From positions 1 through 64,000 of IMG/VR virus record IMGVR_UViG_3300035703_000055: DNA of 64,000 nt; one strand, given 5' to 3'. Both the position numbers and the translations under genes were made by a program. This DNA comes from a virus. The notes under the pieces are model-generated. The model was not told where the DNA came from, did no database searches, and worked only from the letters and a program-made list of their open reading frames with translations. Numbering within the stretch: position 1 is the stretch's first letter; every line of letters begins with the position of its first letter. Of the stretch, positions 4,209 to 63,112 are shown piece after piece.

Positions 4209-4403
4209 TTATTGAGGGTTATTTGGCACAAGCTGTGCGATGCGCGCGCGAAGGGCTTTGATTTCGGCGGCGGCCTCGTCGAGCACAAAGGCGGTTTGGT
4301 ACATCACCTCGCGCAGAGGTTGGTCGTAGCTCTGTGCGGCCACGGCCTTGATGGCCCTGGATCGCAGCCGCAAAACGGCGGCAAAGTCGCGCTCTTCGCT
4401 CAT
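4209..4403 (-). CDS. hypothetical protein
   Basis: ATG 4403 (MSEERDF) overlaps the upstream stop; GGGGAG RBS. Confidence 0.6.
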   Translation of the reverse strand: MSEERDFAAVLRLRSRAIKAVAAQSYDQPLREVMYQTAFVLDEAAAEIKALRARIAQLVPNNPQ

Positions 4404-4606
4404 GGGAATTGCTCCCCGCCTAGAGCGAAGTCGACGGCCCGAGCGACCTGGTGGAAGGCGATGACTTCCCTCGAAGCCTGCAGCCATGCTGGCTCGGTCA
4501 TATAGACATCGCATCCACCGGCGTCGGCCGCTACTCGCTTTTCAGCATCAATGCCGCGGATCTCGCACAGCTTGCGTGCTGCGGCTTCGAGTTGCTCGTC
4601 GGTCAT
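4400..4606 (-). CDS. hypothetical protein
   Basis: MTDEQLEAAARKLCEIRG, a common phage small-ORF start; ATGA coupled. Confidence 0.6.
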   Translation of the reverse strand: MTDEQLEAAARKLCEIRGIDAEKRVAADAGGCDVYMTEPAWLQASREVIAFHQVARAVDFALGGEQFP

Positions 4607-5094
4607 GCCTTTTCTCCCCACATCAGGACGCGCCACACGCGGTAGGCGGTGGTACTGCGCCACCAGATCATGGCCAGCGCGGGCAGGTTGAAGCGCTTGA
4701 CCACACCTTGCTGATCGATCGCCACCAAGGTTTGAGCCTCCCAGCCCTGTCCGTTGCGGATCTCAAACCGGAACGCGGGCGAGGATGTGCCGATTCCAAG
4801 ACAGCCTGCCGAGTTCAGAAACATGGTGTCCGGCCCACGGCCAAACGCAGTGTCCAAACTATTGAGGCGGGCGGCGCACAACTCAGCCCACTCTCTGGTG
4901 GTGAACCAATACGGCTCAGACTGGCCAATACTCAGCGCGCCATCGGCACCCAGGCGCATCACTTCGTTGGTTTGGTAGCAAACGGCCCAGCGGTCGCCTC
5001 GCTGCTCCGCGGCCCAGCCTGATTGATAACTGTTTATTGACCAGACGATCGGCGCGTCTTGGTTGTTTTCAGGGTCGTACCACAAGTGGTTCAT
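4603..5094 (-). CDS. hypothetical protein with tail-fibre-like beta repeats
   Basis: NEVMRLGADGALSIG and MFLNSAGCLGIGTSSP resemble repeats in the tail fibre at 38610-40904. Confidence 0.6.
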   Translation of the reverse strand: MNHLWYDPENNQDAPIVWSINSYQSGWAAEQRGDRWAVCYQTNEVMRLGADGALSIGQSEPYWFTTREWAELCAARLNSLDTAFGRGPDTMFLNSAGCLGIGTSSPAFRFEIRNGQGWEAQTLVAIDQQGVVKRFNLPALAMIWWRSTTAYRVWRVLMWGEKA

Positions 5095-5225
5095 TTCAAT
5101 TCCTTAACGCAGGTGCATGTGTATCCCGACGCGTCGTAGCTCGTGCCTCGGCAGTGCTTGCAGTCGGGGTCAACGGTTCGTTTTGGCGGCGCGATGTGGC
5201 GCAGCAGGGTGGTGAGCCATCTCAT
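5091..5225 (-). CDS. 44-aa Cys-rich micro-protein (CxxC..CxC)
   Basis: hand translation MRWLTTLLRHIAPPKRTVDPDCKHCRGTSYDASGYTCTCVKELK; ATGA coupled at both ends. Confidence 0.55.
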   Translation of the reverse strand: MRWLTTLLRHIAPPKRTVDPDCKHCRGTSYDASGYTCTCVKELK

Positions 5226-5650
5226 GCCTGGCCTCTTGCTCGGATCATTGTTGCCAAGCGCTTGGGCCATTGGCTCTGGCTTTCCTTATCGACCTCATCG
5301 CACGCCTTCGCGCATGCCTCACGCTCGGCTGCAACCTCACGCTGCATGTGCGCCATCGTCACCGTGCCAAACTGCGATGGCTGGTTCTCTGGGTCTGTGA
5401 TGGCTTGCATGATTGCTGCAATCTCGCGTCGTGACTCAGACAGCGCATCGCTCAGGATTTCCACCTGCCGGTTGGTGGCTTCGAGCTCTTCGTACAGACT
5501 GCGAAGGCAGTCCGCGGCCTTGCCGTGCAGAGGCCACTGCATTGTTTGCTCCAAGTGTTCGGCAAGGCGCAAAGGCTCCGGCAGTTTGCTTTGACGCAGC
5601 AGCTTCTCTGTTGCGTCTTCGCTTGCGTAAGCGTCAGGTTTCTCGCTCAT
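5222..5650 (-). CDS. hypothetical protein
   Basis: MSEKPDAY start after an AGGAG RBS; C-terminal AEREACAKAC..IRARG motif typical of betaproteobacterial phage accessory genes. Confidence 0.65.
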   Translation of the reverse strand: MSEKPDAYASEDATEKLLRQSKLPEPLRLAEHLEQTMQWPLHGKAADCLRSLYEELEATNRQVEILSDALSESRREIAAIMQAITDPENQPSQFGTVTMAHMQREVAAEREACAKACDEVDKESQSQWPKRLATMIRARGQA

Positions 5651-6339
5651 TGGTTTTTCTCCTTGCACTTGCTCTCGACCATCAAGATGGCCCACTCATT
5701 CACGCCAGCGTTCCAAAGTTCTTTTTTGTCCTTCGCCGTCAGCTCGACCCACTGCCGCTGTGCTGCAGGAGCGGCGTCGTGCGCCGTCTGATCCATCATC
5801 ACAGTGCGGGCAAGTGCCTCGCAGGTTGGGCATGGCTGTGCTGAGGGCGGGGTGGCAAACGCAGGGTGCGGCGTCATTACAAGCGGCGCGCAGGCGTCCC
5901 ATACAGGCCTCTGCACAGGTGCTGCGGGTCGGTTTAGCTCATTGGTGCTGTCAATAGTCATTCGATCAATAAATTGCACAGACGCTGGCTGTGCGGGTGG
6001 CAGGCTGTGATGCTCATGCGGTCCCGGCCCCCAATCCTCTCGCACAGGTGCTGGCTGTGCTGCGGGTGGGGTGGTGAACATGGCTTCGACCTTTGCCTTC
6101 TGGTCGCGCTCACAGTAGATTGACACCGTGTGGTCCTTGTCGATGGCGAGATCGGCCACAACCATCTCGTGACCCCACGCAGTTTTGACGGGGGCTTGAT
6201 GCCACCTCCACACCACAGGCTCCTGCACAGGCGCCGCAAGGGCTTCGCGCTCCAGGCGCTCGTTGCGTGCTCGCAGAAGGCGGTTCTCCTGCTCCAGTTC
6301 CGCGACCAGGAGGTCGAGTTCGCGTTCTTGCTCGTTCAT
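5647..6339 (-). CDS. mosaic hypothetical protein
   Basis: 230 aa with repeated APVQEPV/AQPAPV linkers; RBS present; coupled to neighbours. Confidence 0.65.
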   Translation of the reverse strand: MNEQERELDLLVAELEQENRLLRARNERLEREALAAPVQEPVVWRWHQAPVKTAWGHEMVVADLAIDKDHTVSIYCERDQKAKVEAMFTTPPAAQPAPVREDWGPGPHEHHSLPPAQPASVQFIDRMTIDSTNELNRPAAPVQRPVWDACAPLVMTPHPAFATPPSAQPCPTCEALARTVMMDQTAHDAAPAAQRQWVELTAKDKKELWNAGVNEWAILMVESKCKEKNQ

Positions 6340-6806
6340 GCAGCCTCCTTAACGGCCATTGCCTTTTTCTTCGTTGTAACTACCAGGAGAATGGCGCGCT
6401 CCATCTCCTGGACTGTGCATTCCTCGAGCTGTTGGGTGTGGACCTCCATGCCTTGCTTGACGGCTTGCATCTCCAGGCCAGTAAACAGGAAGCGGCCCGT
6501 GCGTTCGCCGCGGTCGTGCATGGCGTAGGCAGCATCCTTGGCGGCCTCTAATTCAGGCAGCCAGTCGGCGCCCAGCTTTGGATTGATTTTTGGCAGGCAC
6601 ACAGCCATTTCAAACGCCTCACGCATGGTGTGCGAGTAATCGCCGGTGCCGTCGCCCTTGATGATCGCGTCCATTGCTGCCATGTTGGCGAGCTTCAGGC
6701 CAACGCCAGCCTTGGGCACGCTGCCGACTGGCTTGAAGCCAGCCTTGATCCAGCTCATGTTGTCCAGGCGAACGCCCTTGGGTTTGTAGTTCGATTTTTT
6801 TCTCAC
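6336..6806 (-). CDS. hypothetical protein
   Basis: GTG start at 6806 (VRKKSNYKPK) overlapping the GNAT stop. Confidence 0.65.
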   Translation of the reverse strand: MRKKSNYKPKGVRLDNMSWIKAGFKPVGSVPKAGVGLKLANMAAMDAIIKGDGTGDYSHTMREAFEMAVCLPKINPKLGADWLPELEAAKDAAYAMHDRGERTGRFLFTGLEMQAVKQGMEVHTQQLEECTVQEMERAILLVVTTKKKAMAVKEAA

Positions 6807-7231
6807 AGTTTTTTTCTCCAGTAGAGCGAGGTTTTGAGTCCGTATGGCTCGCGCGGCTCGTACATCTTGAAGCCGCACGAGATGAGTGAGTTGGAGGACT
6901 CGGGGTTTTCGGATGTGTCGGACAGCAACCAGAGCCATCCGATTTCTTTGGCCTTGCGTGCGCGCACTCGGATGAGTCGCTTCTGCAGGCCGCGGCCGCG
7001 GTGATGCAGCAGGACGCCGGAGCGAGATAGGTAGCCTGTCTCAGCCCAGCGCATGCTGGCCTTCATGGATGCAAAGGCGGCAGGCTCGCCGGTCTCCGAG
7101 TACGCGATCCACCAGTAGCCGGTGTGTGGCGGCAGCGGTGTGTCACCAGGAAGGCACTCGCGCTGCATTCGGATCAGCAGCGCAGAGACTTCGGGGTCCC
7201 GGGTGTTGACCTGGCGGATTGCGTATCTCAC
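6803..7231 (-). CDS. GNAT-family N-acetyltransferase
   Basis: acetyl-CoA motif A SGVLLHHRGRGLQKRLI and N..S.NSL..CGF motif B. Confidence 0.85.
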   Translation of the reverse strand: MRYAIRQVNTRDPEVSALLIRMQRECLPGDTPLPPHTGYWWIAYSETGEPAAFASMKASMRWAETGYLSRSGVLLHHRGRGLQKRLIRVRARKAKEIGWLWLLSDTSENPESSNSLISCGFKMYEPREPYGLKTSLYWRKKL

Positions 7232-43592: not shown

Positions 43593-44783
43593 ATGGTCAT
43601 TGATGAAAACCTGAAGCAGTTCGCCACCGCGCGGCAGGTCGAGTACATCGACGCACTCAAAGCGCACGGCGGATGGCGAGCAGCCGCCCGACACCTCGGC
43701 ATCAGCCACAAGAACATCTTCAAGGCGATCAAGTCCTTGGAGAAAAAGGCCGCCATGCGCGGCTACGCACCAGGGCACGACTTCACCCGCCCAGTGCCCG
43801 ACATGTTCGTGGCCAAGGGCGTCTCCACCTACTACAACAAGGACGGCAAGCCGACCGGGCAGTGGGTCAAGGCAAGCTTGGATGACCAAAAGCGCATGCA
43901 GGCCATGCAGGATGCGATTGCAGCCCTGTGTGACGACGTGCCGCGGGTCAAGTCCACGCCAGCACCCGGCATTTCCAGCGAGTCCCTGGCCACCGTCTAC
44001 ACGCTGACCGACTCGCACGTCGGCATGCTGTCCTGGCACCGCGAGACTGGCGAGGACTGGGACCTGGAGATCGCCGAGCGCGTGCTGACTGGTTGCTTCC
44101 AGGCCATGGTCGACGCATCGCCCGCCGCCGGCGTCGGCATCGTCAACCAGCTGGGCGACTTCCTGCACAGCGACGGCTTGTCACCCGTGACGCCAACCTC
44201 TGGCCACATCCTCGACCAGGACGGCCGCTTCAGCAAGGTCGTCGAGGTCGCCGTGCGCGTGCTGCGCTCGGTTGTCTCCATGGCTCTGGCCAAGCACCCC
44301 AAAGTCATCGTGCTCATGGCCGAGGGCAACCACGACATGGCCTCGAGCGTGTGGCTTCGCGTGCTGTTCAAGACCCTGTTCGAAAACGAGCCCCGCGTCG
44401 AGGTCATCGACTCGCCCCTGCCGTACTACTGCATTCAGCACGGCAAGACCATGCTGGCCTTCCACCACGGTCACTTGAAGAAGAACGACCAGCTGCCGAT
44501 CCTGTTTGCCTCGCAGTTCCCGCAGATCTGGGGTGGCACGACAAAGCGCTACGCCCACACCGGCCATCGCCATCACATCGAAGAAAAAGAGCACTCCGGC
44601 ATCACCGTGATTCAGCACCCAACGCTGGCAGCGCGCGACGCCTACGCAGCCCGCGGCGGCTGGGTTGCCGAGCGCCAGGTCACCAGCATCACTTATCACT
44701 CTGAGTTTGGCCAAGTGGCTCGCCACACCGTCACCCCCGAAATGATCGAGCCGACAGCAACAAAAAGTTGCATCAGCGGCTAA
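43593..44783 (+). CDS. HTH + calcineurin-like metallophosphoesterase
   Basis: DSHVG, GDFLH, GNHD, HHGH, GHRHH motifs; N-terminal AAARHLGIS HTH. Confidence 0.85.
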   Translation: MVIDENLKQFATARQVEYIDALKAHGGWRAAARHLGISHKNIFKAIKSLEKKAAMRGYAPGHDFTRPVPDMFVAKGVSTYYNKDGKPTGQWVKASLDDQKRMQAMQDAIAALCDDVPRVKSTPAPGISSESLATVYTLTDSHVGMLSWHRETGEDWDLEIAERVLTGCFQAMVDASPAAGVGIVNQLGDFLHSDGLSPVTPTSGHILDQDGRFSKVVEVAVRVLRSVVSMALAKHPKVIVLMAEGNHDMASSVWLRVLFKTLFENEPRVEVIDSPLPYYCIQHGKTMLAFHHGHLKKNDQLPILFASQFPQIWGGTTKRYAHTGHRHHIEEKEHSGITVIQHPTLAARDAYAARGGWVAERQVTSITYHSEFGQVARHTVTPEMIEPTATKSCISG

Positions 44784-54793: not shown

Positions 54794-57700
54794 ATGGCAC
54801 AACAAGACTTCTCTCTTCTCCTGAGCGCCCTGCCGGGCTCCGAGTCACCCGCTCCCGCTGCAAGCCAAGCGCCTGCGCGCAGTGGCGACAACGTCTCGAA
54901 TTTCGTGGGCACCTACCTGCCCCTTGCTCAGCGAGTCTCAGAGAAGACAGGCGTCGCGCCTGAAGCCTTGCTTGGCCAGTGGGGCTTGGAGACCGGCTGG
55001 GGCAAGAGCGTCATCCCGGGCACCAACAACCTGGGCAACATCAAAGACTTTTCCGGCAAGGGCCCGAAAGCCGTCGACAACATGACCAAGTCGACTGACG
55101 CCTACCGCGCCTACGAAACGGTCGACGATTTTGGTGACGACTTCGCTGGCCTGCTGTCGCGCCGCTACCGCACCGCACTGAACGCCGGCGGCGACACCCA
55201 GAAGTATTTCAACGAGCTCAAGCGCCTAGGCTACGCCGAAGACCCGAACTACGTGGCTTCTGGCGTCAAGGCCGCCAAGATGGTTTCCAATGTGCTGGGC
55301 ACCAGTGCAGGCCAGGCTCCTTCATTCAGCAATGCGCGCCCACTGACGACCGACCGCAGCATGGGCGAGGCCCTGGCCGACAACCTGTTGGGCGCAGCAT
55401 CTGGCGTGGTCACCGGCGCAAAGCTGCTGACCGACACTTTTGGTGCAGACAACCGCGTGTCGCAAGCCCTGGGCGACACCACCAAGGCGCTGACCGACAG
55501 CCAGTCCCAATACCGCAAGGATCAACGCCAAGAGCGCGCCTTCGAAATCAAGAATGCCGAGGCGTCCGGCAGCACCTGGAACGAGATCGTTGCCAACATC
55601 GGCGGCTTCCTCGAGGCGCCTGTTGAGACCACGCTGAATGCCTTGGGCACCAGCGCCCCGACACTGCTGATGGCAGTCATCCCAGGCCTTGGACAAGCTC
55701 AGGCCGCCCGGTTCATTCTGCAGGGCGCGGCCGGTGCTGCGCAGGGCGTGGGCGCCGCCAAGAGTGGCATCTACGACGCGGTGCGCAACGAGCTCGAGGC
55801 TACAGGCAAGTACACCGCCGATGAGGCCGCCAAGATCGCCGCCGGCGCGCAGGCGTACGACAGCGAGAACGCTGGCAACATCGCCATCAACGGCTTGCTT
55901 GGCCTGGTGGCTGGCACCTCCGGTATTGAATCGGTGGCGGGCCGCCTGGCTGGCCGCAAGGTTGGCCAAGAGACAGCTCGTGGCATTGCTGGCCGTGCCG
56001 GCATGGGTGTGGCCAAAGAATCGCCCGTCGAGGGCGCGCAAGGCGGCTTTGAGCGCTACACATCCAACGTCGCGCTGCAGAACGAAGGCTTCGATGTTGA
56101 CCCCATGCAGGGCGTCGCTGGCCAGGCTGCCGGCGAAGCGATTGCATCCGCTCCTGGTGGTGCCGCATTCGGCGCACTGGATCGCGGCGTCACACCTCCT
56201 CCCGCTCCCAACCCCCTGCAGTCCGTTGTTGACCAGGCGCAGAAGCCCGGCAGCGTGCTCTCGCGCGCCGTGGTGTCCACCGGCGTCACTGATCAGCCAG
56301 TCGTTCCCGTTGAGAACACGATCGTTCCCGGCCAGGAAACAGTCGCCGGCGCACAAACCCAAATCGGGGTTGATCAAACCCAAATCGGGAACACTTCCAA
56401 TCCAACTGGCCCTGGCCCTTCCGCCGATCCGTTTGCCCGCAAGGCAGCCGAGCTCGAGCAAGTCATCCGCAGCCAGGACCTGATTCGCTCCATCCGCACC
56501 GATGGCGCAGGCCTCAACGGCGTGATGTTCGACCTGCGCACCTTGCGCGACCCGAGCGCTCGCGAAGACATCAAGCAGGCCGCACAGCAGCGCATCGAAG
56601 AAGAAATCACCTGGGCCCAGACCAACTACAGGCCCAAGCCTGAGATGGACACGGTGCAGGGCACGCCAGGCTTTGAGCCCATCGACCCAGCTCGCCAGCC
56701 CGAGCCTCGTGGCCAAGACGTCATGGGCCTGGACATCGTCCGCGCCACACTGCGTGACCCGCAAATCGGACCCAAGGTCAGCGACACCGATCGCCAGGAA
56801 ATCCTGCGCTTCTCGGCTGACGCCCAGAACCCAGGCCTCCCGCTCCAGACACGCCAGCAAGCAGCTCAGCAAGCCATTGAGCTCGTCGGCCGCTATCGCG
56901 CTGCCATGGAGCCCCAGGTTCAGCCCGCAGCGGATTCCGCTTCGCCTGAAGAGCAACAAACTGTTGTCGATCAAACAGCGCCCGTTGCCGATGAAACAAC
57001 AGCCCGCACACCCGCCGGCGCTGGCCCAGCCTTGTTCCGCCGCCGCGCCGAGACCATTGGCCAGCTCGTGGCCAACGGCTTTGAGACCGTGCAGCGCCGC
57101 CCAGACGGCTTCTTCCTGACCAACACCAAGACCGGTCAGGAATTCAAGCTGGACAGCATGGCCGACGCGCAGATCGCTCGCAATCAGATCCAGAAGGCTG
57201 TTGACGCCAAAGCCAACACCGCTGCCGCCAGCCCACTGAATGACCTGGCCGAGCCCACGCAAGCTCAGATCGAAGCCGGCAACTACAAGAAGTCGGACGT
57301 CATCGACCTGAACGGCATGAAGATCAAGATCGAGAACCCCAAGGGCTCGGTCCGTCGCGGCACGTCTCCTGACGGCGTCATGTGGGAGACCAAGATGGCT
57401 CACCACTATGGCGAGTTCCAGGGAACCGTCGGTGCTGATGGCGACAAGCTCGATGTGTTTGTGGGTCCACGCCCAGACGGCGACAAGGTCTACGTCATCG
57501 ACCAGGTCAACGAGGACGGCTCCTTCGACGAGCACAAAGTCATGATGGGCTTCACCTCGGAAGAGGCTGCCCGCGCCGGCTACCTGGCCAACTACGAAAA
57601 AGGCTGGACCGGTCTGGGTGCCATCACCGAGATGCCGGTTGCCGACTTCAAAACCTGGGCCAAGTCACGCCAGGCCAAGAAGCCTGCAGCGAGCATGGCC

Positions 57701-60700
57701 AAGCCCGCCGCCGCTGCGCCTGTCGCCGAGACTGCGGCCGCGCCTGCAGCCACTCCTGCCGCCCCAAGCACTCAGGGCCAGTTCGCCACCGCGGACGAGG
57801 CCAAGGCCTACATCTCCCAACAGCGCCGCACAAACGGCAACGTCTCTGGCCTGCCGCTACAGATGGCTGACGGCACCTTTGGCATCGCCATCAAGGGCAC
57901 GCCTCAGTACGCCGAGGCCGAGCGTCAACGTGACGAACGCGATGCCCAGGCAGCCAAGTCTCAGGGCGAGTTCTTCACCGTGCCCGATGGCGGCAAGCAG
58001 AAGAAGCTCAAGCGCGTCAAGAAGTCGGCCATGCCCAAGAAGGCCAGCCCGCGCCGCATGGGCGAGCCTCGCGCACTGACGCAAGACGAAGCCTCCATGA
58101 TCGAGCAGGTCGCCGCAGTGCTGGGCAAGAACGTCGTGTTCTTCGAAGCCCAAGGCGATCGCATCGGCGACGGCTTCATCCTGCCGAATGACCCAAGCAC
58201 GCTGTACGTGGCGACCGAGACCACAGTGAATCCTCTGGCCGTGTTTGGCCACGAGTTCTTCCACGGCCTGCGCGAGACCAACCCCGAGGCCTGGAACGCG
58301 ATTGCAGCCGTTGTGCGCACCCGTGTGGCCGATCCCAAGGGCTTCCGCGAGGACTACTACCGCGGCGGCGACGACAGCCAGCTCAGCGAAGAGAAGGGTG
58401 GCGAGCTCGAGGAGCTGGTCTCCGATCTGGGCGGCAACCTGATGATGGACCCGACTTTCTGGCGCGACGTGTTCGCCAAGATCGGCGAGGACCACGGCAA
58501 AGACGCCAAGGGCATCATCGCCCGCCTGGCCGCCGCCATCGAAAGCCTGATTGCTCGCGTGATGAAGGCCATGGCCCAGCCTGGCTTCCGCGCCAACGAT
58601 TTTGTCAGCGACATCGAGTCCATCCGCAACGCCTACAAAGACGGCCTGGCCGACTTCATCAAGGCCGCCGGCGTCAACAAGGCCTCAATGGGTGCCGAGG
58701 TCGCCAAGGCCAAGCAGGGCCTGCTGAAGACGCCCGATCGCGCCGCACAGCCTGGCTCACTGACCGTTGAGGGCTACCACTTCAGCCAGCAGCCTCGCGC
58801 CGTGTTGACGACCGGCCTGTTTGGCACTGGCCTGAATGGCAGCGCTCGCGACGAAATCATGAACGCCGATGACCAGCGCCTGCGCCAGCGTCTGTCGTTC
58901 TACGTCAACAAAGGCACCGGCATCAACCCCGAGGCTGGTGTTGGCGCCTACGCCCACAAGGCAACGCTCACCAACATCTACGACAGCGACGCCGATCCAC
59001 TGCGCCTGCGCACCGGTGATGCCCGCGCATTCGAGTCCAAGGTGCTCGACGCTGGCTTCAGCGGCTACCTGGCCCGAATGGACGGCACACAGTCCGGCAA
59101 CGTAGTGCTGCTGGGCAACCAGACCGTCAAGCCCGAGTTGCTGGGCACCGGGCCCGTCAAGGGCGCCAAGGTTGTGCCAGCCCCGCAGCAGCGAGACCAG
59201 GACACTGCCGATCGCCTGATGGCCAGCAAGGATCTGCCGGCCGGCATGCTGAGCCCTCAGCGCTGGTCTGAAGTGCTCATAGCGCAAGACCCTGAGCTCG
59301 CCGCCCAGCTGCTGGACATCGGCGCATTCGAGGGCTCCAAGGGCATGTACAAGGACGAGCTCGCCGCCAAGGTGCGCTCGCTCGGCGGCCAGATCCGCAA
59401 GTCGGCCGACCGCGCCAAGAGCGAATACGACGCCGTCGTCGCTCAGTACAAAGGCACCGATGCCTGGATGAAGGCGCCCAACGGCGAAGCCACCAAGCTG
59501 TCCGAGCGTCAGTGGGTGCAGGTCCGCACGCCAAGCTTCAAGAAGTGGTTTGGCGACTGGGAAGCCGCACTCGCCAAAGGTGGCGTCTGGGCTGTCGAGG
59601 ATGTGTCCAAGGCTGTTGGCGAGAACGGCGAACCCCTGGTCGTCTACCACGGCTCCGACAAGGGCGGCTTCACTGAGTTTGAGGCACCTGGCGGCAGCGG
59701 CCGAGGCGACCTCGGCATCTGGACCACGCCGGACTACGGCATGGCCAAGAGCTATGTGCGAAAGGGTCGCGCTCGCGACGTCGACCTCTCGACGCCCAGC
59801 CAATCAGAGCTCGAGGATGCGGGCTACGAGTTTTTCGGCCTAACCGATGACGACACCGAGTCCCCTGGTCAGTACTACGACGAGCCAAATGGCGACAGAA
59901 ACGGGCCATTTGAGACGGAGCAGGAGGCTGTCGCAGATGCGGCCACCTCGTTTGAGGGCGAGGCCGGCGTTCAGCCTGGCATCTATGCCCTGTTCATCAA
60001 CATCCGCAACCCCAATGAGTCCAACTTTGAGGGCGCGATGTGGAACGGCGAGCGCATCGACCAGTTCCAGGTCCGCGACGAGAACGATGAGCCCGTCTAT
60101 GACAAGGATGGCCGCGGGTACTTTGACCGCGACACCGCAGAAGCTCTCGTTGAAGCCAACCCTGGCGCAGAAATGCAGCCGGCTGATCCGAACTTCGAGA
60201 CCACAGACGACGTGGTTCGCGAAGCCCTTCGCAACGACAACGACGGCGCCATCATCCGCGAGGTGATCGACGACGGCGGTGGCCCAGGTTACTTCCTTGA
60301 CCCGCAGGACATCTTTGTCGCCTTTGATCCCTCGCAGGTCAAGTCCGCCGACTACAACAACGGCGAGTTCAGCGACAGCACCGGCGATCTGCGCAAGTCG
60401 GCTGATCGCAAGTCACTCAAGCGCGAAGACCCGTTCGAGATGTCGACCCGAATCCCGACAGCCAAGGGTAAGGCTGTCGAGGATCACATGGGCGATTTGT
60501 TGATCTCCGACTTTGGGTCCGGCAAGAGCCAGGAGAGGTGGATCAACACCGTCTCGGGCATCGTCACGCAGTACCCAAACTACCGCGAAGCCGACAGCGC
60601 GAAGACGCCAGAGAAGAAGCTTGAGCGCCTGATCCGCCAGATGACAGACAACCTGGTGTGGCTGCACAACCAGGTTCCGGCAAGCACACGCAAGCGCAGC

Positions 60701-63112
60701 AAGCTCTGGTACGACGGCGCCAACGCCATTGCCGAACGCATGGCCAAGCGCTACGGCATCACCGAGCCTCAGGCTGCCGGCATTCTTGCCGTTCTGAGTC
60801 CGCAGAAAGACTGGTTCATGAACGTGAGCCTGGCCGACCGCGTGGCCTCGATCATGGCTGAGCGCCAGAAATTTGCCTGGTCTCCACAGATGGAAGCCAC
60901 GTCCAAGCGAATCTACGGCGGCGCGCAGTACCAAGTGGCCCTGGATCAGGTTCGCGGCAAAACGCTGGGTGGCCTTGATGACGACTACCTCGCCTCAATC
61001 TGGCTGCGTGTTTACGACCAAACCTACAACAGCCGCTCGTTTGACATTGTTTCGCCCGAAGGCGACATGCTTGCCCGCGCTCAGACCAAAAAGGGCGTCG
61101 ACGCCAACGTGGCATGGGGAGGCAACAGCACCATCGCCAAAGCGATCGCAGTCTTCCGTGATGGCGGTGTGGGGCGCATTAGCTCGGAGCTTGGCACCAA
61201 GCACAAGGTTCGCAACTTCTACAACAACATCCTGGTTCCAAACAGCCGCAATGGCCACGTCACGATTGACACGCATGCTGTGGCTGCAGCACTGCTGCGT
61301 CCGCTGTCGGGCAATTCACTCGAGGTCAAGCACAACTTTGGCGGCGCCAGCAACGCAATCTCCGGTCTGCAGGGCACATACGCCCTGTACGAAGAGGCTT
61401 ATCGTCGCGCAGCCAAGGAGCTCGGGCTCTTGCCTCGAGAGCTTCAATCGATCACCTGGGAAGCTATTCGCGGGATGTATGTCCCAGGATTCAAATCGCA
61501 GCAGAAAAATGTTGACGGTATTGATAAAATCTGGACTCAATTCAAGAAAGGACGTCTGAGCTATGACGGAGCAAGAGAACTCGCAATCGAAACTGCTGGA
61601 GGCATTGAAGCCCCTAGCTGGCTCGGACGCAACCCTGGCGTTTATGTTGAAGAACAGCTTGCCGCTGAATCTGACGACGTATCTGGAGATGGAGTATCCG
61701 GAGGGAGCTCCGAAGACATTGTCATCCGAGCAGTTGGCGATGATTCCGGAGCCCCTGAGGCAGGCATCCGCCGCTCAGGAGATCGAGACGGAGCAGGACT
61801 CGATTCGAGCGGAAGCCGTTCGCAGGGAGAAGGTGCGCAAGATGGCGCAGGACGCCTCGCGCCGCTTCCCGGCTACGCCCACGGCAACATCCAAGGGGCG
61901 GCAGGGCCGGACCCGCGGATAGTCGAAGTCGCCGAGAAGTACGCGCGCGACAACGGGATCACGCTTGTCCGTCAGGCCGAGTATGTCGAGGTTGATCCCG
62001 AGCGAGCCGCGCGCATTGCGGATGCCTACCAGGCAATGCCGCATGCGCCTCAAGACCCACGCGTCAAAGAGGCGTTCCGGAACCTGATCAGCCAGACCCG
62101 CGCTCAGTACGACGCGCTCATCGAAGCTGGCTACGAGTTCACGTTCTTCGACTCCAACAGCGACCCATACCAGGGCAACCCCTGGAGTGCCATGCGGGAC
62201 TTGCGCGCCAACAAGCGCATGGCCGTGTACGGCACCTATGACGGCTACGGCACCGAGGGCATCACCGCCAAAGCGGCCGATGACAACCCAATGCTGGGTG
62301 ACACCGGTTTGCAGTGGAAAGACCAGGGCGGCCAACTGCGCCCAGTGGCGGCCAACGACCTGTTCCGCGCTGTGCATGACGCTTTTGGCCACGGCCTCGA
62401 GGGCGCAGGCTTCCGGGCCCAGGGCGAAGAAAACGCATGGCAGGCCCATGTGCGCCTCTTCACTGGCTCGGCCGTCGGCGCCATCACGAGCGAGACCCGC
62501 GGCCAAAACAGCTGGCTGAACTACGGCCCGTACGGCGAAACAAACCGCACGGCAAAGCTTGAAGGCACCGTTTTCGCCGAGCAGAAAACCGGTCTCATGC
62601 CAGAGTGGACATGGAGTGAGGGTGTGGCCGCAGATGCCGGCGACATCCGAAAGAGTCCTGCGCGCCGCAATGACCTTATGGCCGCAAAGCTGTCCCGCGT
62701 CGGCATCAAAAGCGCCGACGACTTTTGGAGGACCTGGCGCAATCTGATGGTTGGCACCGCCGGCCCAGATCCACGCCTGTCGGCGATCGGCTCGACTGAT
62801 TCACAGGTCCAGAGGGTTGAGGGCCTTGTGCGGGCGCACAGGATTGACGCTGACGACTCCGGCATTCTGAGCGTACTCAAGGGGTACGACACCAAGCCCG
62901 AAGGCGCCAAGACCGGCGGCAACGAGGATGGCGTCGTCACCTCTGCAATCGCAAAGCGAATCTTGGAGAGCGCGGGCGTAAAGCCAACCGTTGAAAACGC
63001 GGTTGCGGCATACGAATCGCTGCCAGGCAGCGCTCAACAAAATGTTGTTGATGCAACATACAATCAACGCATCGCCGCCCTCAAAGATCTCATCTCCTGC
63101 CTGAAGAAATAA
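54794..63112 (+). CDS. giant polyvalent ejection protein (glucosaminidase, InPase-like, HExxH peptidase, ART-like, HhH-glycosylase-like domains)
   Basis: LETGWG..NNLGNIK..GYAEDPNY (GH73); AGNYKK..IENPKGS.R..DGD.LDVF..FDEHKV; HEFFH; PLVVYHG; KVRNFY..VTIDTHA; AVHDAFGH..GEENAW. Confidence 0.88.
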   Translation: MAQQDFSLLLSALPGSESPAPAASQAPARSGDNVSNFVGTYLPLAQRVSEKTGVAPEALLGQWGLETGWGKSVIPGTNNLGNIKDFSGKGPKAVDNMTKSTDAYRAYETVDDFGDDFAGLLSRRYRTALNAGGDTQKYFNELKRLGYAEDPNYVASGVKAAKMVSNVLGTSAGQAPSFSNARPLTTDRSMGEALADNLLGAASGVVTGAKLLTDTFGADNRVSQALGDTTKALTDSQSQYRKDQRQERAFEIKNAEASGSTWNEIVANIGGFLEAPVETTLNALGTSAPTLLMAVIPGLGQAQAARFILQGAAGAAQGVGAAKSGIYDAVRNELEATGKYTADEAAKIAAGAQAYDSENAGNIAINGLLGLVAGTSGIESVAGRLAGRKVGQETARGIAGRAGMGVAKESPVEGAQGGFERYTSNVALQNEGFDVDPMQGVAGQAAGEAIASAPGGAAFGALDRGVTPPPAPNPLQSVVDQAQKPGSVLSRAVVSTGVTDQPVVPVENTIVPGQETVAGAQTQIGVDQTQIGNTSNPTGPGPSADPFARKAAELEQVIRSQDLIRSIRTDGAGLNGVMFDLRTLRDPSAREDIKQAAQQRIEEEITWAQTNYRPKPEMDTVQGTPGFEPIDPARQPEPRGQDVMGLDIVRATLRDPQIGPKVSDTDRQEILRFSADAQNPGLPLQTRQQAAQQAIELVGRYRAAMEPQVQPAADSASPEEQQTVVDQTAPVADETTARTPAGAGPALFRRRAETIGQLVANGFETVQRRPDGFFLTNTKTGQEFKLDSMADAQIARNQIQKAVDAKANTAAASPLNDLAEPTQAQIEAGNYKKSDVIDLNGMKIKIENPKGSVRRGTSPDGVMWETKMAHHYGEFQGTVGADGDKLDVFVGPRPDGDKVYVIDQVNEDGSFDEHKVMMGFTSEEAARAGYLANYEKGWTGLGAITEMPVADFKTWAKSRQAKKPAASMAKPAAAAPVAETAAAPAATPAAPSTQGQFATADEAKAYISQQRRTNGNVSGLPLQMADGTFGIAIKGTPQYAEAERQRDERDAQAAKSQGEFFTVPDGGKQKKLKRVKKSAMPKKASPRRMGEPRALTQDEASMIEQVAAVLGKNVVFFEAQGDRIGDGFILPNDPSTLYVATETTVNPLAVFGHEFFHGLRETNPEAWNAIAAVVRTRVADPKGFREDYYRGGDDSQLSEEKGGELEELVSDLGGNLMMDPTFWRDVFAKIGEDHGKDAKGIIARLAAAIESLIARVMKAMAQPGFRANDFVSDIESIRNAYKDGLADFIKAAGVNKASMGAEVAKAKQGLLKTPDRAAQPGSLTVEGYHFSQQPRAVLTTGLFGTGLNGSARDEIMNADDQRLRQRLSFYVNKGTGINPEAGVGAYAHKATLTNIYDSDADPLRLRTGDARAFESKVLDAGFSGYLARMDGTQSGNVVLLGNQTVKPELLGTGPVKGAKVVPAPQQRDQDTADRLMASKDLPAGMLSPQRWSEVLIAQDPELAAQLLDIGAFEGSKGMYKDELAAKVRSLGGQIRKSADRAKSEYDAVVAQYKGTDAWMKAPNGEATKLSERQWVQVRTPSFKKWFGDWEAALAKGGVWAVEDVSKAVGENGEPLVVYHGSDKGGFTEFEAPGGSGRGDLGIWTTPDYGMAKSYVRKGRARDVDLSTPSQSELEDAGYEFFGLTDDDTESPGQYYDEPNGDRNGPFETEQEAVADAATSFEGEAGVQPGIYALFINIRNPNESNFEGAMWNGERIDQFQVRDENDEPVYDKDGRGYFDRDTAEALVEANPGAEMQPADPNFETTDDVVREALRNDNDGAIIREVIDDGGGPGYFLDPQDIFVAFDPSQVKSADYNNGEFSDSTGDLRKSADRKSLKREDPFEMSTRIPTAKGKAVEDHMGDLLISDFGSGKSQERWINTVSGIVTQYPNYREADSAKTPEKKLERLIRQMTDNLVWLHNQVPASTRKRSKLWYDGANAIAERMAKRYGITEPQAAGILAVLSPQKDWFMNVSLADRVASIMAERQKFAWSPQMEATSKRIYGGAQYQVALDQVRGKTLGGLDDDYLASIWLRVYDQTYNSRSFDIVSPEGDMLARAQTKKGVDANVAWGGNSTIAKAIAVFRDGGVGRISSELGTKHKVRNFYNNILVPNSRNGHVTIDTHAVAAALLRPLSGNSLEVKHNFGGASNAISGLQGTYALYEEAYRRAAKELGLLPRELQSITWEAIRGMYVPGFKSQQKNVDGIDKIWTQFKKGRLSYDGARELAIETAGGIEAPSWLGRNPGVYVEEQLAAESDDVSGDGVSGGSSEDIVIRAVGDDSGAPEAGIRRSGDRDGAGLDSSGSRSQGEGAQDGAGRLAPLPGYAHGNIQGAAGPDPRIVEVAEKYARDNGITLVRQAEYVEVDPERAARIADAYQAMPHAPQDPRVKEAFRNLISQTRAQYDALIEAGYEFTFFDSNSDPYQGNPWSAMRDLRANKRMAVYGTYDGYGTEGITAKAADDNPMLGDTGLQWKDQGGQLRPVAANDLFRAVHDAFGHGLEGAGFRAQGEENAWQAHVRLFTGSAVGAITSETRGQNSWLNYGPYGETNRTAKLEGTVFAEQKTGLMPEWTWSEGVAADAGDIRKSPARRNDLMAAKLSRVGIKSADDFWRTWRNLMVGTAGPDPRLSAIGSTDSQVQRVEGLVRAHRIDADDSGILSVLKGYDTKPEGAKTGGNEDGVVTSAIAKRILESAGVKPTVENAVAAYESLPGSAQQNVVDATYNQRIAALKDLISCLKK
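61502..61552 (+). promoter_or_regulatory. internal promoter and RBS for the nested gene
   Basis: CAGA-AAAAT-GTTG at 61502-61514, TG-A-TAAAAT at 61522-61530, AAAGGA at 61547-61552. Confidence 0.55.
61563..61922 (+). CDS. nested +1-frame gene inside the polyvalent protein gene (candidate immunity/inhibitor)
   Basis: own ATG, RBS and extended -10; protein-like composition, unlike other shadow ORFs. Confidence 0.6.
   Translation: MTEQENSQSKLLEALKPLAGSDATLAFMLKNSLPLNLTTYLEMEYPEGAPKTLSSEQLAMIPEPLRQASAAQEIETEQDSIRAEAVRREKVRKMAQDASRRFPATPTATSKGRQGRTRG
63035..63064 (+). promoter_or_regulatory. CAAC-N5-GTTG box plus -10 upstream of the next gene
   Basis: CAAC-AAAAT-GTTG at 63035-63047, TACAAT at 63059-63064. 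Confidence 0.5.

What the first reader, a model, noticed from the sequence alone, without database searches (positions are those of the whole stretch)
61502..61922. Overprinted gene with its own promoter hidden inside the giant ejection-protein gene, directly behind a DNA-glycosylase-like domain: candidate nested effector-immunity system
Seen: a 119-aa ORF in the +1 frame starts at 61563, about 90 nt after the C-terminal motif (ELQSITWEAIRG) of an HhH-glycosylase-like domain at ~60440-61560. It has an AAAGGA RBS 10 nt upstream and an extended -10 (TG-A-TAAAAT). A degenerate copy of the phage's CAAC-N5-GTTG box sits 10 nt before that -10, the same geometry as four other sites in this window. 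Over this stretch the main frame turns into a low-complexity Gly/Asp/Glu/Ser linker with codons atypical for the gene (GGA, GAA, GAT). The nested frame reads like a folded helical protein (DATLAFMLKNSLPLNLTTYLEMEYPEGAPKTLSSEQLAMIPEPLR), unlike the Arg/Pro/Ser/Thr-rich shadow ORFs elsewhere. Inference: a small cognate inhibitor is encoded inside the polyprotein gene, so that a toxic DNA-acting domain and its antidote move as one cassette without breaking the long reading frame.
Basis: partly seen in the sequence, partly recalled or inferred. Interest (0 to 1): 0.9.

Follow-up and report, generated by a model that had tools for sequence, protein, structure and literature searches.

The report
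Partner gene nested in giant phage gene
A real small gene sits one base out of frame inside an 8.3-kb phage virion-protein gene; its acidic 66-residue core is predicted to clamp onto the DNA-glycosylase-like domain encoded just upstream, a pairing kept in well over a hundred related phage contigs and missing from the family libraries searched.

Summary
The +1-frame ORF at 61563-61922 lies inside the 2772-codon polyvalent gene (54794-63112) and is a genuine gene. Its conserved core is residues 1-66 (61563-60).

- All five close relatives keep the same start codon, ribosome-binding site and open frame.
- In 43 more distant relatives the codon-position diversity flips to the +1 frame over the overlap.
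- The small protein also occurs as a free-standing gene. A profile finds 1306 protein clusters.
- No Pfam, PHROG, NCBIfam or PADLOC family matches it.
- It sits at the 3' end of the DUF7178 domain in three layouts: separate, overlapping the gene's tail, or deeply nested as here.

DUF7178 models as a helix-hairpin-helix glycosylase-like fold. The best 24 structural matches are all from that superfamily.

A controlled co-fold supports binding (score 0.81, best control 0.02). It places the acidic partner over invariant Lys and Asp residues of the domain. Toxicity, inhibition and expression are untested, and an obligate subunit is a live rival.

The "own promoter" is only partly supported. A rare promoter-like element is present here and in the nearest relative, but not in the other four close relatives.

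The scan had already noted this layout on at least four other genomes.

The parts
54794..63112 (+). Host gene: 2772-aa polyvalent virion protein. Domains: glucosaminidase 43-156, InPase 823-957, HExxH peptidase motif, ART-PolyVal 1610-1859, DUF7178 from 1941, C-terminal HD..GH domain.
60581..61642 (+). DUF7178 domain (main aa 1930-2283). Helical, HhH-GPD glycosylase-like fold.
   Evidence: Pfam PF23802. AF2 pLDDT 85. VIA-align top 24 hits are all HhH-GPD or QNG1 enzymes, best 3n0u, Z 9.0, rmsd 4.0, 186 aligned. Foldseek gives only weak hits to AGOG and OGG1.
61205..61207 (+). Invariant Lys (K209 in alignment A2 numbering) in the LGxxHKVRNF motif. Putative HhH lysine.
   Evidence: Invariant column. 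In the predicted interface. The assignment to the HhH motif is inference from memory of the EndoIII motif.
61268..61270 (+). Invariant Asp (D230 in A2 numbering) in the IDTHAVAA motif. Putative catalytic Asp.
   Evidence: Invariant column. In the predicted interface. Likeness to the EndoIII VDTHIFRV motif is from memory and was not tested.
61511..61530 (+). Promoter-like element GTTG-N10-TAAAAT, including the TGATAAAAT extended -10 at 61522-61530.
   Evidence: 3 copies in the window against 0.02 expected; the other two precede gene starts. Conserved only in L002. Not found by the sigma-70 scan.
61547..61552 (+). Shine-Dalgarno AAAGGA, 10 nt before the nested ATG.
   Evidence: Identical in all six members of the close clade; it fixes the rare GGA codon of the main frame.
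61563..61922 (+). Nested gene, +1 frame, 119 aa plus stop.
61563..61760 (+). Conserved core of the nested protein (aa 1-66). Acidic and helical, with motifs G-x-D, P-L-x-L-x-T-Y-L-x-M-x-Y-P-x-G-x-P and P-E-P-L-R.
   Evidence: Alignment A1. AF2 pLDDT 82-89 over the core. pI 4.5. GC3 0.75 in this frame.
61761..61919 (+). C-terminal read-on of the nested ORF (aa 67-119). Poorly conserved and absent from most family members.
61643..61921 (+). Main-frame low-complexity linker (passenger reading of the nested gene) between DUF7178 and the next domain.
61766..61786 (+). Main-frame junction motif IRRSGDR, 6 nt after the nested core ends. Related motifs recur at other domain boundaries of the gene.
   Evidence: translation; lead from earlier notes

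Best explanation
The ORF 61563-61922 is a genuine gene embedded one base out of frame in the polyvalent virion-protein gene.

Expression. It is translated from its own start (AAAGGA-N10-ATG) on the long late transcript. In this phage it may also be transcribed from an internal promoter-like element.

Product. It makes a small acidic helical protein whose 66-residue core is the dedicated partner of the DUF7178 (HhH-glycosylase-like) domain encoded immediately upstream.

Mechanism (inferred). The partner binds in the conserved cleft of that domain, over its invariant Lys and Asp. The most likely role is an active-site cap, a safety catch or immunity-like inhibitor. It would keep the injected enzyme silent in the cell that builds the virions.

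Main frame. Across the nested gene the main frame is a passenger. Its translation is the floppy linker that joins DUF7178 to the next module.

Origin (inferred). The layout arose because the DUF7178 gene lost its stop codon, read through its small downstream neighbour, and then fused to further modules.

My odds: real gene 0.95; direct binding to DUF7178 0.7; inhibitor rather than subunit or chaperone about 0.4-0.45.
For: Shown:
1. In L002-L006 (61-74% identical main protein) the +1 frame is open from the same TGA-xxx-ATG, and the product is conserved.
2. Main-frame third-position diversity falls from about 0.40 to 0.18-0.25 over 61598-61720.
3. In 43 distinct tail-overlap relatives the pattern flips from 0.1/0.02/0.5 in the domain to about 0.4/0.1/0.03 in the overlap. 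Selection there acts on the +1 frame.
4. In this window GC3 is 0.75 in the nested frame against 0.38 in the main frame.
5. Free-standing 60-62-aa homologues start at or near the DUF7178 stop in 14 loci.
6. The profile finds 1306 clusters at E<=1e-3, mostly 55-125 aa.
7. Linkage: 79 of 80 loci, 13-14 of 16 loci, and 55 of 55 in the reciprocal search.
8. One in-frame DUF7178-module fusion exists, P0116.
9. SD-like sequences sit at proper spacing in all three layouts.
10. DUF7178 has an HhH-GPD-like fold.
11. The co-fold supports binding but does not show it: score 0.81 against a best control of 0.02. That mark was reached by 58 of 80 solved complexes and 2 of 110 mismatched pairs. My own alignments were used, so these counts hold only roughly. 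Runs agree in at least 91% of contacts and partner pLDDT is at least 85.
12. The interface includes invariant K209, D230-T231, W-G-G and S-P-Q-K residues.
13. The partner family is acidic: median pI 4.4, net charge -5.5.
Against: - No expression data. No RNA run holds the stretch, and translation is inferred.
- Pairwise pN/pS inside the close clade is noisy. For window against L003, L004 and L006 the nested frame does not look better constrained than the main frame.
- Binding is a model's prediction only.
- The catalytic assignment of Lys/Asp rests on fold likeness at middling Z for a helical protein (notes) and on a remembered motif. No sequence-level link to glycosylases was found.
- An in-frame fusion (P0116) and contacts with nearly all invariant residues fit an obligate subunit as well as an inhibitor.
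- Some DUF7178 genes lack a detectable module: Roseobacter phage CRP-738, L092 and L095.
Confidence: 0.45

Rival explanations
1. The nested gene is real and binds DUF7178, but as an obligate subunit, activator, folding chaperone or packaging adaptor rather than an inhibitor.
For: - Strict co-occurrence.
- An in-frame fusion, P0116.
- The predicted interface covers most invariant residues of the domain, as expected if they are kept for the partner.
- Other family members carry extra domains or tandem modules: P0006, P0045, P0047.
Against: - A small, strongly acidic protein laid over the putative Lys/Asp site of a nucleic-acid-enzyme-like fold is the pattern of known glycosylase inhibitors (my own knowledge).
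- Some DUF7178 genes seem to do without it.
Confidence: 0.3
2. The small module is joined to DUF7178 by programmed ribosomal frameshifting, giving a second, shorter product, rather than being started independently.
For: - The module is in the +1 frame of the domain in nearly all loci.
- One in-frame fusion exists.
Against: - A +1-frame stop lies directly before the ATG here and in the close clade.
- In the separate layout the ATG is the first codon after a stop.
- An SD precedes the ATG in all layouts.
- L097 has it in the +2 frame, and in L093 it starts directly after the main stop.
- I saw no slippery site by eye in the few codons between the stop and the ATG; this was not formally scanned.
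Confidence: 0.03
3. Shadow ORF: the +1 frame is open and looks conserved only because the GC-rich main frame is conserved.
For: - The gene is 63% GC and full of long alternative-frame ORFs.
- The first ~30 nested codons overlap a conserved main-frame stretch.
Against: - The diversity flip to the +1 frame.
- Free-standing homologues and 1306 clusters.
- GC3 inversion.
- Other +1 ORFs in the same gene are Arg/Pro/Ser-rich and carry stops in relatives.
Confidence: 0.02

Closest known systems
Rz/Rz1 two-component spanin genes of phage lambda and relatives (Kongari et al. 2018, PMC6139136, found)
   Same: A small gene lies in the +1 frame of a larger gene whose product it binds. The same gene pair occurs in embedded, overlapped and separated layouts in different phages.
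   Different: No sequence or functional relation: no lipoprotein, no membrane anchor, no role in lysis. The host gene is an 8.3-kb multi-enzyme virion gene. The host frame over the nested gene is a passenger linker, not a functional domain.
Polyvalent proteins of phages and conjugative elements (Iyer et al. 2017, PMC5512222)
   Same: A giant injected multi-domain protein with InPase, ART-PolyVal, a zincin-like peptidase and a cell-wall hydrolase. Processing at linkers is proposed in the paper.
   Different: A term search of that paper found 'glycosylase' 0 times and 'overlapping' 0 times. Nested partner genes and the DUF7178 domain are not part of its description as far as I could search.
HhH-GPD DNA glycosylases and the queuosine-salvage hydrolase QNG1/DUF2419 (3n0u, 7ugk, 1xqp, 1pu6, 2abk)
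   Same: Fold-level match of the DUF7178 model: Z 9.0-5.1 for the first 20 rows, all from this superfamily. An invariant Lys lies about 21 residues before an invariant Asp in an xDTHxxxx motif (likeness to EndoIII from memory).
   Different: No sequence-profile link. The Z values are middling for a helical fold. Substrate and activity are unknown, and no GPD loop or Fe-S cluster was recognised.
Small acidic protein inhibitors of DNA glycosylases (Ugi, p56, SAUGI against UDG) and toxin-immunity pairs of polymorphic toxins (my own knowledge)
   Same: A small acidic protein encoded next to, or aimed at, a nucleic-acid enzyme and predicted to occupy its substrate cleft.
   Different: No fold match for the small protein. 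Those inhibitors target a host enzyme of another fold, whereas here the target is the phage's own domain. Inhibition is untested.

Membership tests
Embedded (overprinted) protein-coding gene | Alternative frame kept open, with the same start, in related genomes | tested here: met
   All five close relatives and about 60 further loci
Embedded (overprinted) protein-coding gene | Purifying selection on the alternative frame, beyond what the main frame imposes | tested here: met
   The codon-position diversity flip in 43 sequences. A weaker dip in the close clade. Pairwise pN/pS is noisy.
Embedded (overprinted) protein-coding gene | Own translation signals | tested here: met
   AAAGGA-N10-ATG is conserved in the clade. 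GAGGAGG or GGAGGA occurs in the other layouts.
Embedded (overprinted) protein-coding gene | The product is made (RNA, ribosome footprints or peptides) | not testable with these tools
   No RNA run holds the stretch
HhH-GPD glycosylase superfamily (for the DUF7178 domain) | Shared two-lobed helical fold | tested here: met
   The top 24 VIA-align rows are all from this superfamily, best Z 9.0, rmsd 4.0, 186 aligned. Foldseek prob 0.77 to AGOG. The Z values are middling for helical proteins.
HhH-GPD glycosylase superfamily (for the DUF7178 domain) | Helix-hairpin-helix motif followed by a catalytic Asp | tested here: inconclusive
   Invariant K209 and D230 have fitting spacing. No residue-level structural alignment was available.
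HhH-GPD glycosylase superfamily (for the DUF7178 domain) | Sequence-profile match to the family | tested here: not met
   Pfam gives only DUF7178. A profile search against PDB sequences finds no glycosylase.
Effector-immunity (enzyme plus cognate inhibitor) pair | Conserved adjacency of the two genes | tested here: met
   79 of 80, 13-14 of 16, and 55 of 55 loci
Effector-immunity (enzyme plus cognate inhibitor) pair | Direct binding of the small protein to the enzyme | tested here: inconclusive
   The model supports binding but does not show it: score 0.81 against a best control of 0.02. The mark was reached by 58 of 80 solved complexes and 2 of 110 mismatched pairs; these counts are rough with my own alignments.
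Effector-immunity (enzyme plus cognate inhibitor) pair | The enzyme is harmful, and the partner neutralises it | not testable with these tools
   Needs expression and assay
Polyvalent protein (Iyer et al. 2017) | Many unrelated effector domains in one polypeptide of a phage or conjugative element | tested here: met
   Glucosaminidase, InPase, ART-PolyVal and DUF7178 in 2772 aa; PHROG DarB-like
Programmed ribosomal frameshift product | Open alternative frame upstream of the shift site, and no independent start needed | tested here: not met
   A stop lies directly before the conserved ATG, and an SD is present

The most novel reading that the evidence does not exclude
Giant injected phage proteins carry hidden, out-of-frame genes for the safety-catch inhibitors of their own enzyme modules. 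The disordered linkers of these proteins are the out-of-frame translation of such genes. Polyvalent proteins would then grow by reading through small partner genes without losing them, and enzyme and antidote would travel as one indivisible cassette. DUF7178 would be a new DNA- or nucleotide-targeting glycosylase-like effector with a new family of protein inhibitor.
Probability: 0.35. Interest if true: 0.85.

Novelty: new variant of a known kind. Interest (0 to 1): 0.75.

Why it matters
- Annotation. Standard gene callers forbid long same-strand overlaps. A conserved protein family (1306 clusters, no family in Pfam, PHROGs, NCBIfam or PADLOC) can therefore go uncalled where it is nested. In the one annotated phage record with a (weak) nested hit, no separate gene is listed over it.
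- A functional handle. The pairing ties a specific partner to a widespread domain of unknown function (DUF7178) found in phage ejection and polyvalent proteins. If the partner is an inhibitor, it is a new glycosylase-like enzyme and inhibitor pair.
- Evolution of giant proteins. The three layouts document step by step how a stop-codon loss turns a neighbouring gene into a linker. This offers a concrete mechanism for how polyvalent proteins accrete modules.

Tried and rejected
Family and fold searches that found nothing:
- Pfam, PHROGs, NCBIfam and PADLOC gave no family for the small protein.
- Foldseek of the small-protein model gave nothing below E 3.8.
- The ESM Atlas gave only an unnamed viral cluster at 0.77.
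- The DUF7178 profile against PDB sequences gave only chance hits.
- A search for longer proteins (210-2000 aa) carrying the module found none. By the tool's own note this is weak evidence.

Tools that could not help:
I could not check the context of the 1306 clusters, nor whether the P0116 fusion is genuine.
- No RNA holder was listed for the stretch.

Negative or weak results in the window:
- The sigma-70 promoter scan of 60500-62500 found no site.
- I looked for further nested genes behind other modules, a lead from earlier notes. The +1 ORFs at 58245-58442, around 59250-59420 and at 56673-57119 are Arg/Pro/Ser-rich; the first two have stops in relatives, and the third could not be compared.
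- Pairwise Nei-Gojobori pN/pS in the close clade was too noisy to be decisive.

Tree. The careful tree search did not finish, so only the quick tree was used, with a midpoint root. The ancestral layout is therefore not settled.

Cultured phages. Roseobacter phage CRP-738 has DUF7178 but no detectable module. Rhodobacteraceae phage LS06-2018-MD07 gives only a weak nested hit at E 0.002.


Full report
WHAT IS THERE

The window is part of a 79-kb uncultured virus record. The only run holding all of the stretch's sampled words is a subsurface metagenome, which may be its own source.

The host gene. The ORF 54794-63112 encodes a 2772-aa polyvalent protein. Pfam finds these domains:
- a glucosaminidase (43-156);
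- InPase (823-957);
- ART-PolyVal (1610-1859);
- DUF7178 (from 1941).
PHROGs adds DarB-like and internal-virion-protein likenesses.

It lies at 61563-61922, in the +1 frame, and encodes 119 aa.
- AAAGGA lies 10 nt before the ATG.
- A +1-frame TGA sits immediately before the ATG.
- Over this stretch the main frame reads as a Gly/Asp/Ser/Glu-rich linker and GC dips to 0.53.
- GC at codon positions 1/2/3 is 0.66/0.47/0.75 gene-wide. Over 61562-61759 it is 0.74/0.52/0.38 in the main frame and 0.52/0.38/0.75 in the nested frame.
- This is the strongest such inversion anywhere in the 8.3-kb gene.

IS IT A GENE?

Close relatives. A protein-guided scan of viral contigs returned 80 loci. Five of them (L002-L006, 61-74% identical) match the query through the linker and the next domain.
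- In all five the +1 frame opens at the same TGA-xxx-ATG.
- It stays open for 91-105 codons and encodes a recognisably conserved protein.
- The six close-clade sequences also share the AAAGGA motif, which fixes a rare GGA codon in the main frame.
- Main-frame third-position diversity falls from about 0.40 to 0.18-0.25 across 61598-61720, while positions 1 and 2 rise.
- Pairwise pN/pS is noisy in so short a stretch and is not decisive for the window's own copy.

Wider family. This gives the decisive evidence. An HMM of the six proteins finds a small ORF at the same place in 79 of the 80 loci. Shared motifs are G-x-D, P-[LIV]-T-R-E-N-Y-L-x-L-A-Y-P-E-G-x-P and L-P-x-E-[IL]-R.

Of the 74 loci where motif and start could be assigned, 73 fall into three layouts and one (L063) is intermediate:
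- Separate: 60-62-aa genes overlapping the DUF7178 stop by 22-34 nt, or in one locus starting after it (14 loci, e.g. L076).
- Tail overlap: the small ORF lies wholly inside the last ~230 nt of a stand-alone 650-700-aa DUF7178 gene (50 loci, e.g. L030).
- Deeply nested, as here (9 loci).

In 43 distinct tail-overlap sequences, the diversity at main-frame codon positions 1/2/3 changes sharply:
- about 0.1/0.02/0.5 inside the domain;
- about 0.4/0.1/0.03 over the overlap.
Main position 3 is nested position 2. Selection therefore acts on the +1 frame, and the main-frame tail is a passenger.

Further support:
- Each layout has an SD-like sequence at proper spacing.
- A profile search of 1.84 billion cluster representatives finds 1306 proteins at E<=1e-3 and 195 at E<=1e-10, mostly 55-125 aa. 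None of those looked up has a name.
- No Pfam, PHROG, NCBIfam or PADLOC family matches.
- Other +1 ORFs in the same giant gene are ordinary shadow ORFs.

LINKAGE TO DUF7178

- In prokaryote genome contigs, 13-14 of 16 DUF7178 loci carry the module at the domain's 3' end. One is a nested copy in Pseudofulvimonas gallinarii DSM 21944.
- In the reciprocal scan, all 55 viral loci found through the small protein's motif have DUF7178 ending where the module starts. Many of these contigs overlap the first set.
- One database protein (P0116, a fragment) has the module fused in frame to the DUF7178 C-terminus. Others have two tandem modules or extra C-terminal regions.
- A quick tree of the domain needs at least four, and more parsimoniously eight, changes of layout. 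The window sits in a clade of nine, all nested. L018 and L020 became nested within the tail-overlap clade. The root is not established.
- A few DUF7178 genes lack a detectable module.

WHAT THE TWO PROTEINS LOOK LIKE

DUF7178.
- It models confidently (pLDDT 85, pTM 0.84).
- Foldseek gives only weak hits, led by archaeal AGOG and mouse OGG1.
- The Foldseek-independent search puts HhH-GPD enzymes in the first 24 rows: Tm1821 Ogg (Z 9.0, rmsd 4.0, 186 aligned), QNG1/DUF2419 (Z 8.0 and 7.6), AGOG (7.5), then MagIII, Mag1, EndoIII, MutY, OGG1, AlkA and MBD4. Unrelated folds follow at Z 3.8 or less.
- These Z values are middling for helical proteins, and there is no sequence-level link. I call it glycosylase-like, not a member.
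- Invariant residues include K209 in L-G-x-x-H-K-V-R-N-F and D230 in I-D-T-H-A-V-A-A. From memory these resemble the HhH lysine and the V-D-T-H-I-F-R-V aspartate of endonuclease III. That is a lead, not a test.

The small protein.
- It models as a short helical bundle (core pLDDT 82-89) with no fold match.
- It is acidic: window core pI 4.5, family median pI 4.4.

DO THEY BIND?

- The controlled co-fold of the DUF7178 alignment with residues 1-70 of the partner alignment supports binding. It does not show it.
- The score is 0.81 and the best of three controls is 0.02. That mark was reached by 58 of 80 solved complexes and 2 of 110 mismatched pairs. My own alignments were used, so these counts hold only roughly.
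- The runs agree in at least 91% of contacts, and partner pLDDT is at least 85.
- The confident interface covers domain residues 74-75, 111-120, 134-143, 178-190, 202-209, 230-231 and 243-254. It therefore includes K209, D230 and most other invariant patches.
- On the partner side it covers residues 20-27, 42-47 (the Y-P-E motif) and 54-60.

MECHANISM

- Shown: a conserved, selected, separately started small gene that is tied to DUF7178.
- Inferred: its product binds the domain's conserved cleft.
- Further inferred, at about 0.4-0.45: it caps the active site. The enzyme, destined for the virion and the next host, would then stay silent in the producing cell.
- The main rival, at about 0.3, is an obligate subunit, chaperone or packaging adaptor. 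The in-frame fusion and the breadth of the interface fit it equally well.
- Frameshifting and a shadow ORF are very unlikely.

Junction motif. The main-frame motif IRRSGDR (61766-61786; lead from earlier notes) starts 6 nt after the nested core ends. The two frames therefore seem to divide the DNA between them. Nested residues 67-119 are an unconstrained read-on.

THE PROMOTER CLAIM

- The palindrome CAAC-N5-GTTG is real and enriched: 65 sites within one mismatch against 30 expected, with exact copies listed.
- The site before the nested gene keeps only the GTTG half.
- GTTG-N9/10-TAAAAT occurs three times in the window against 0.02 expected. Two copies lie just before genes 44797 and 50949. 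The third is at 61511-61530.
- It is shared with L002 but absent from L003-L006. A generic sigma-70 scan finds nothing.
- An internal promoter is therefore possible in this lineage. It is not a conserved feature of the nested gene.

COMPARISON AND NOVELTY

- The nearest analogue in gene architecture is Rz/Rz1, with its embedded, overlapped and separated forms (PMC6139136).
- The host protein is a polyvalent protein in the sense of Iyer et al. 2017. A term search of that paper found neither 'glycosylase' nor 'overlapping' (PMC5512222).
- No paper in the library mentions DUF7178.
- This scan had already reported the same layout, a partner gene nested behind the glycosylase-like domain of a polyvalent gene, on at least four other genomes. 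I read those notes after reaching my own conclusion, and they agree with it.
- I rate it a new variant of known kinds: an embedded gene pair, and an enzyme with a dedicated partner.

Noticed in passing
window 4167, 7824, 9435, 11538, 12753, 18313, 42061, 42155, 44758, 50912, 56954, 63035: The exact palindrome CAAC-N5-GTTG, often with an A-rich spacer, recurs across the genome (65 sites within one mismatch against 30 expected). At 44758 and 50912 it is followed by N9-10, TAAAAT, and a gene start about 10 nt later. It is probably the phage's own promoter or operator signal. The -10-like box is unusually close to the ATG.
   Followed up: partly
window 61766-61786, also about 59393, 60389 and 62645: A main-frame junction motif, [IL]-R-[KR]-S-x-D/A-R, recurs at module boundaries of the polyvalent protein (a lead from earlier notes). 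The copy in this linker starts 6 nt after the nested core ends. It is a possible processing site for the HExxH peptidase module.
   Followed up: partly
L030:2248-4245 and 4242-7157; 50 similar loci: In about 33-kb phage contigs the stand-alone DUF7178 gene carries a low-complexity tail of roughly 75 aa. This tail is the out-of-frame reading of the small gene. In nearly all of the 50 loci it ends 38 nt after the small gene's stop; in L030 that stop overlaps (ATGA) the start of an internal-virion-protein gene.
   Followed up: yes
P0116, P0006, P0045, P0047, P0092 (database proteins): The ~45-aa module also occurs fused in frame to a DUF7178 C-terminus (P0116), as two tandem copies (P0006), and with unrelated N- or C-terminal extensions. 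Genomic contexts could not be fetched.
   Followed up: partly
L154 (Rhodobacteraceae phage LS06-2018-MD07) 3450-3692; L153 (Roseobacter phage CRP-738) 1181-3688: Of the annotated phage records examined, LS06-2018-MD07 has a weak nested hit inside a ~9-kb CDS annotated 'methyltransferase', with no separate gene listed over it. The cultured phage CRP-738 gp40 has DUF7178, right after the portal gene, but no detectable module.
   Followed up: partly
window 61923-62640 (main aa 2377-2615): The module after the linker carries an H-D-x-F-G-H-G and E-E-N-A-W-Q-A-H motif and matches only PHROG 3170 (unknown function). Its DNA relatives in cyanophage and Roseobacter-group phage records are variously annotated RelA/SpoT, lysin or large polyvalent protein.
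   Followed up: no
L018, L020 against L009, L011: Within the tail-overlap clade, two loci have lost the DUF7178 stop and read on for about 100 more codons. These are recent examples of the stop-loss step that would turn a tail overlap into a deep nest.
   Followed up: partly
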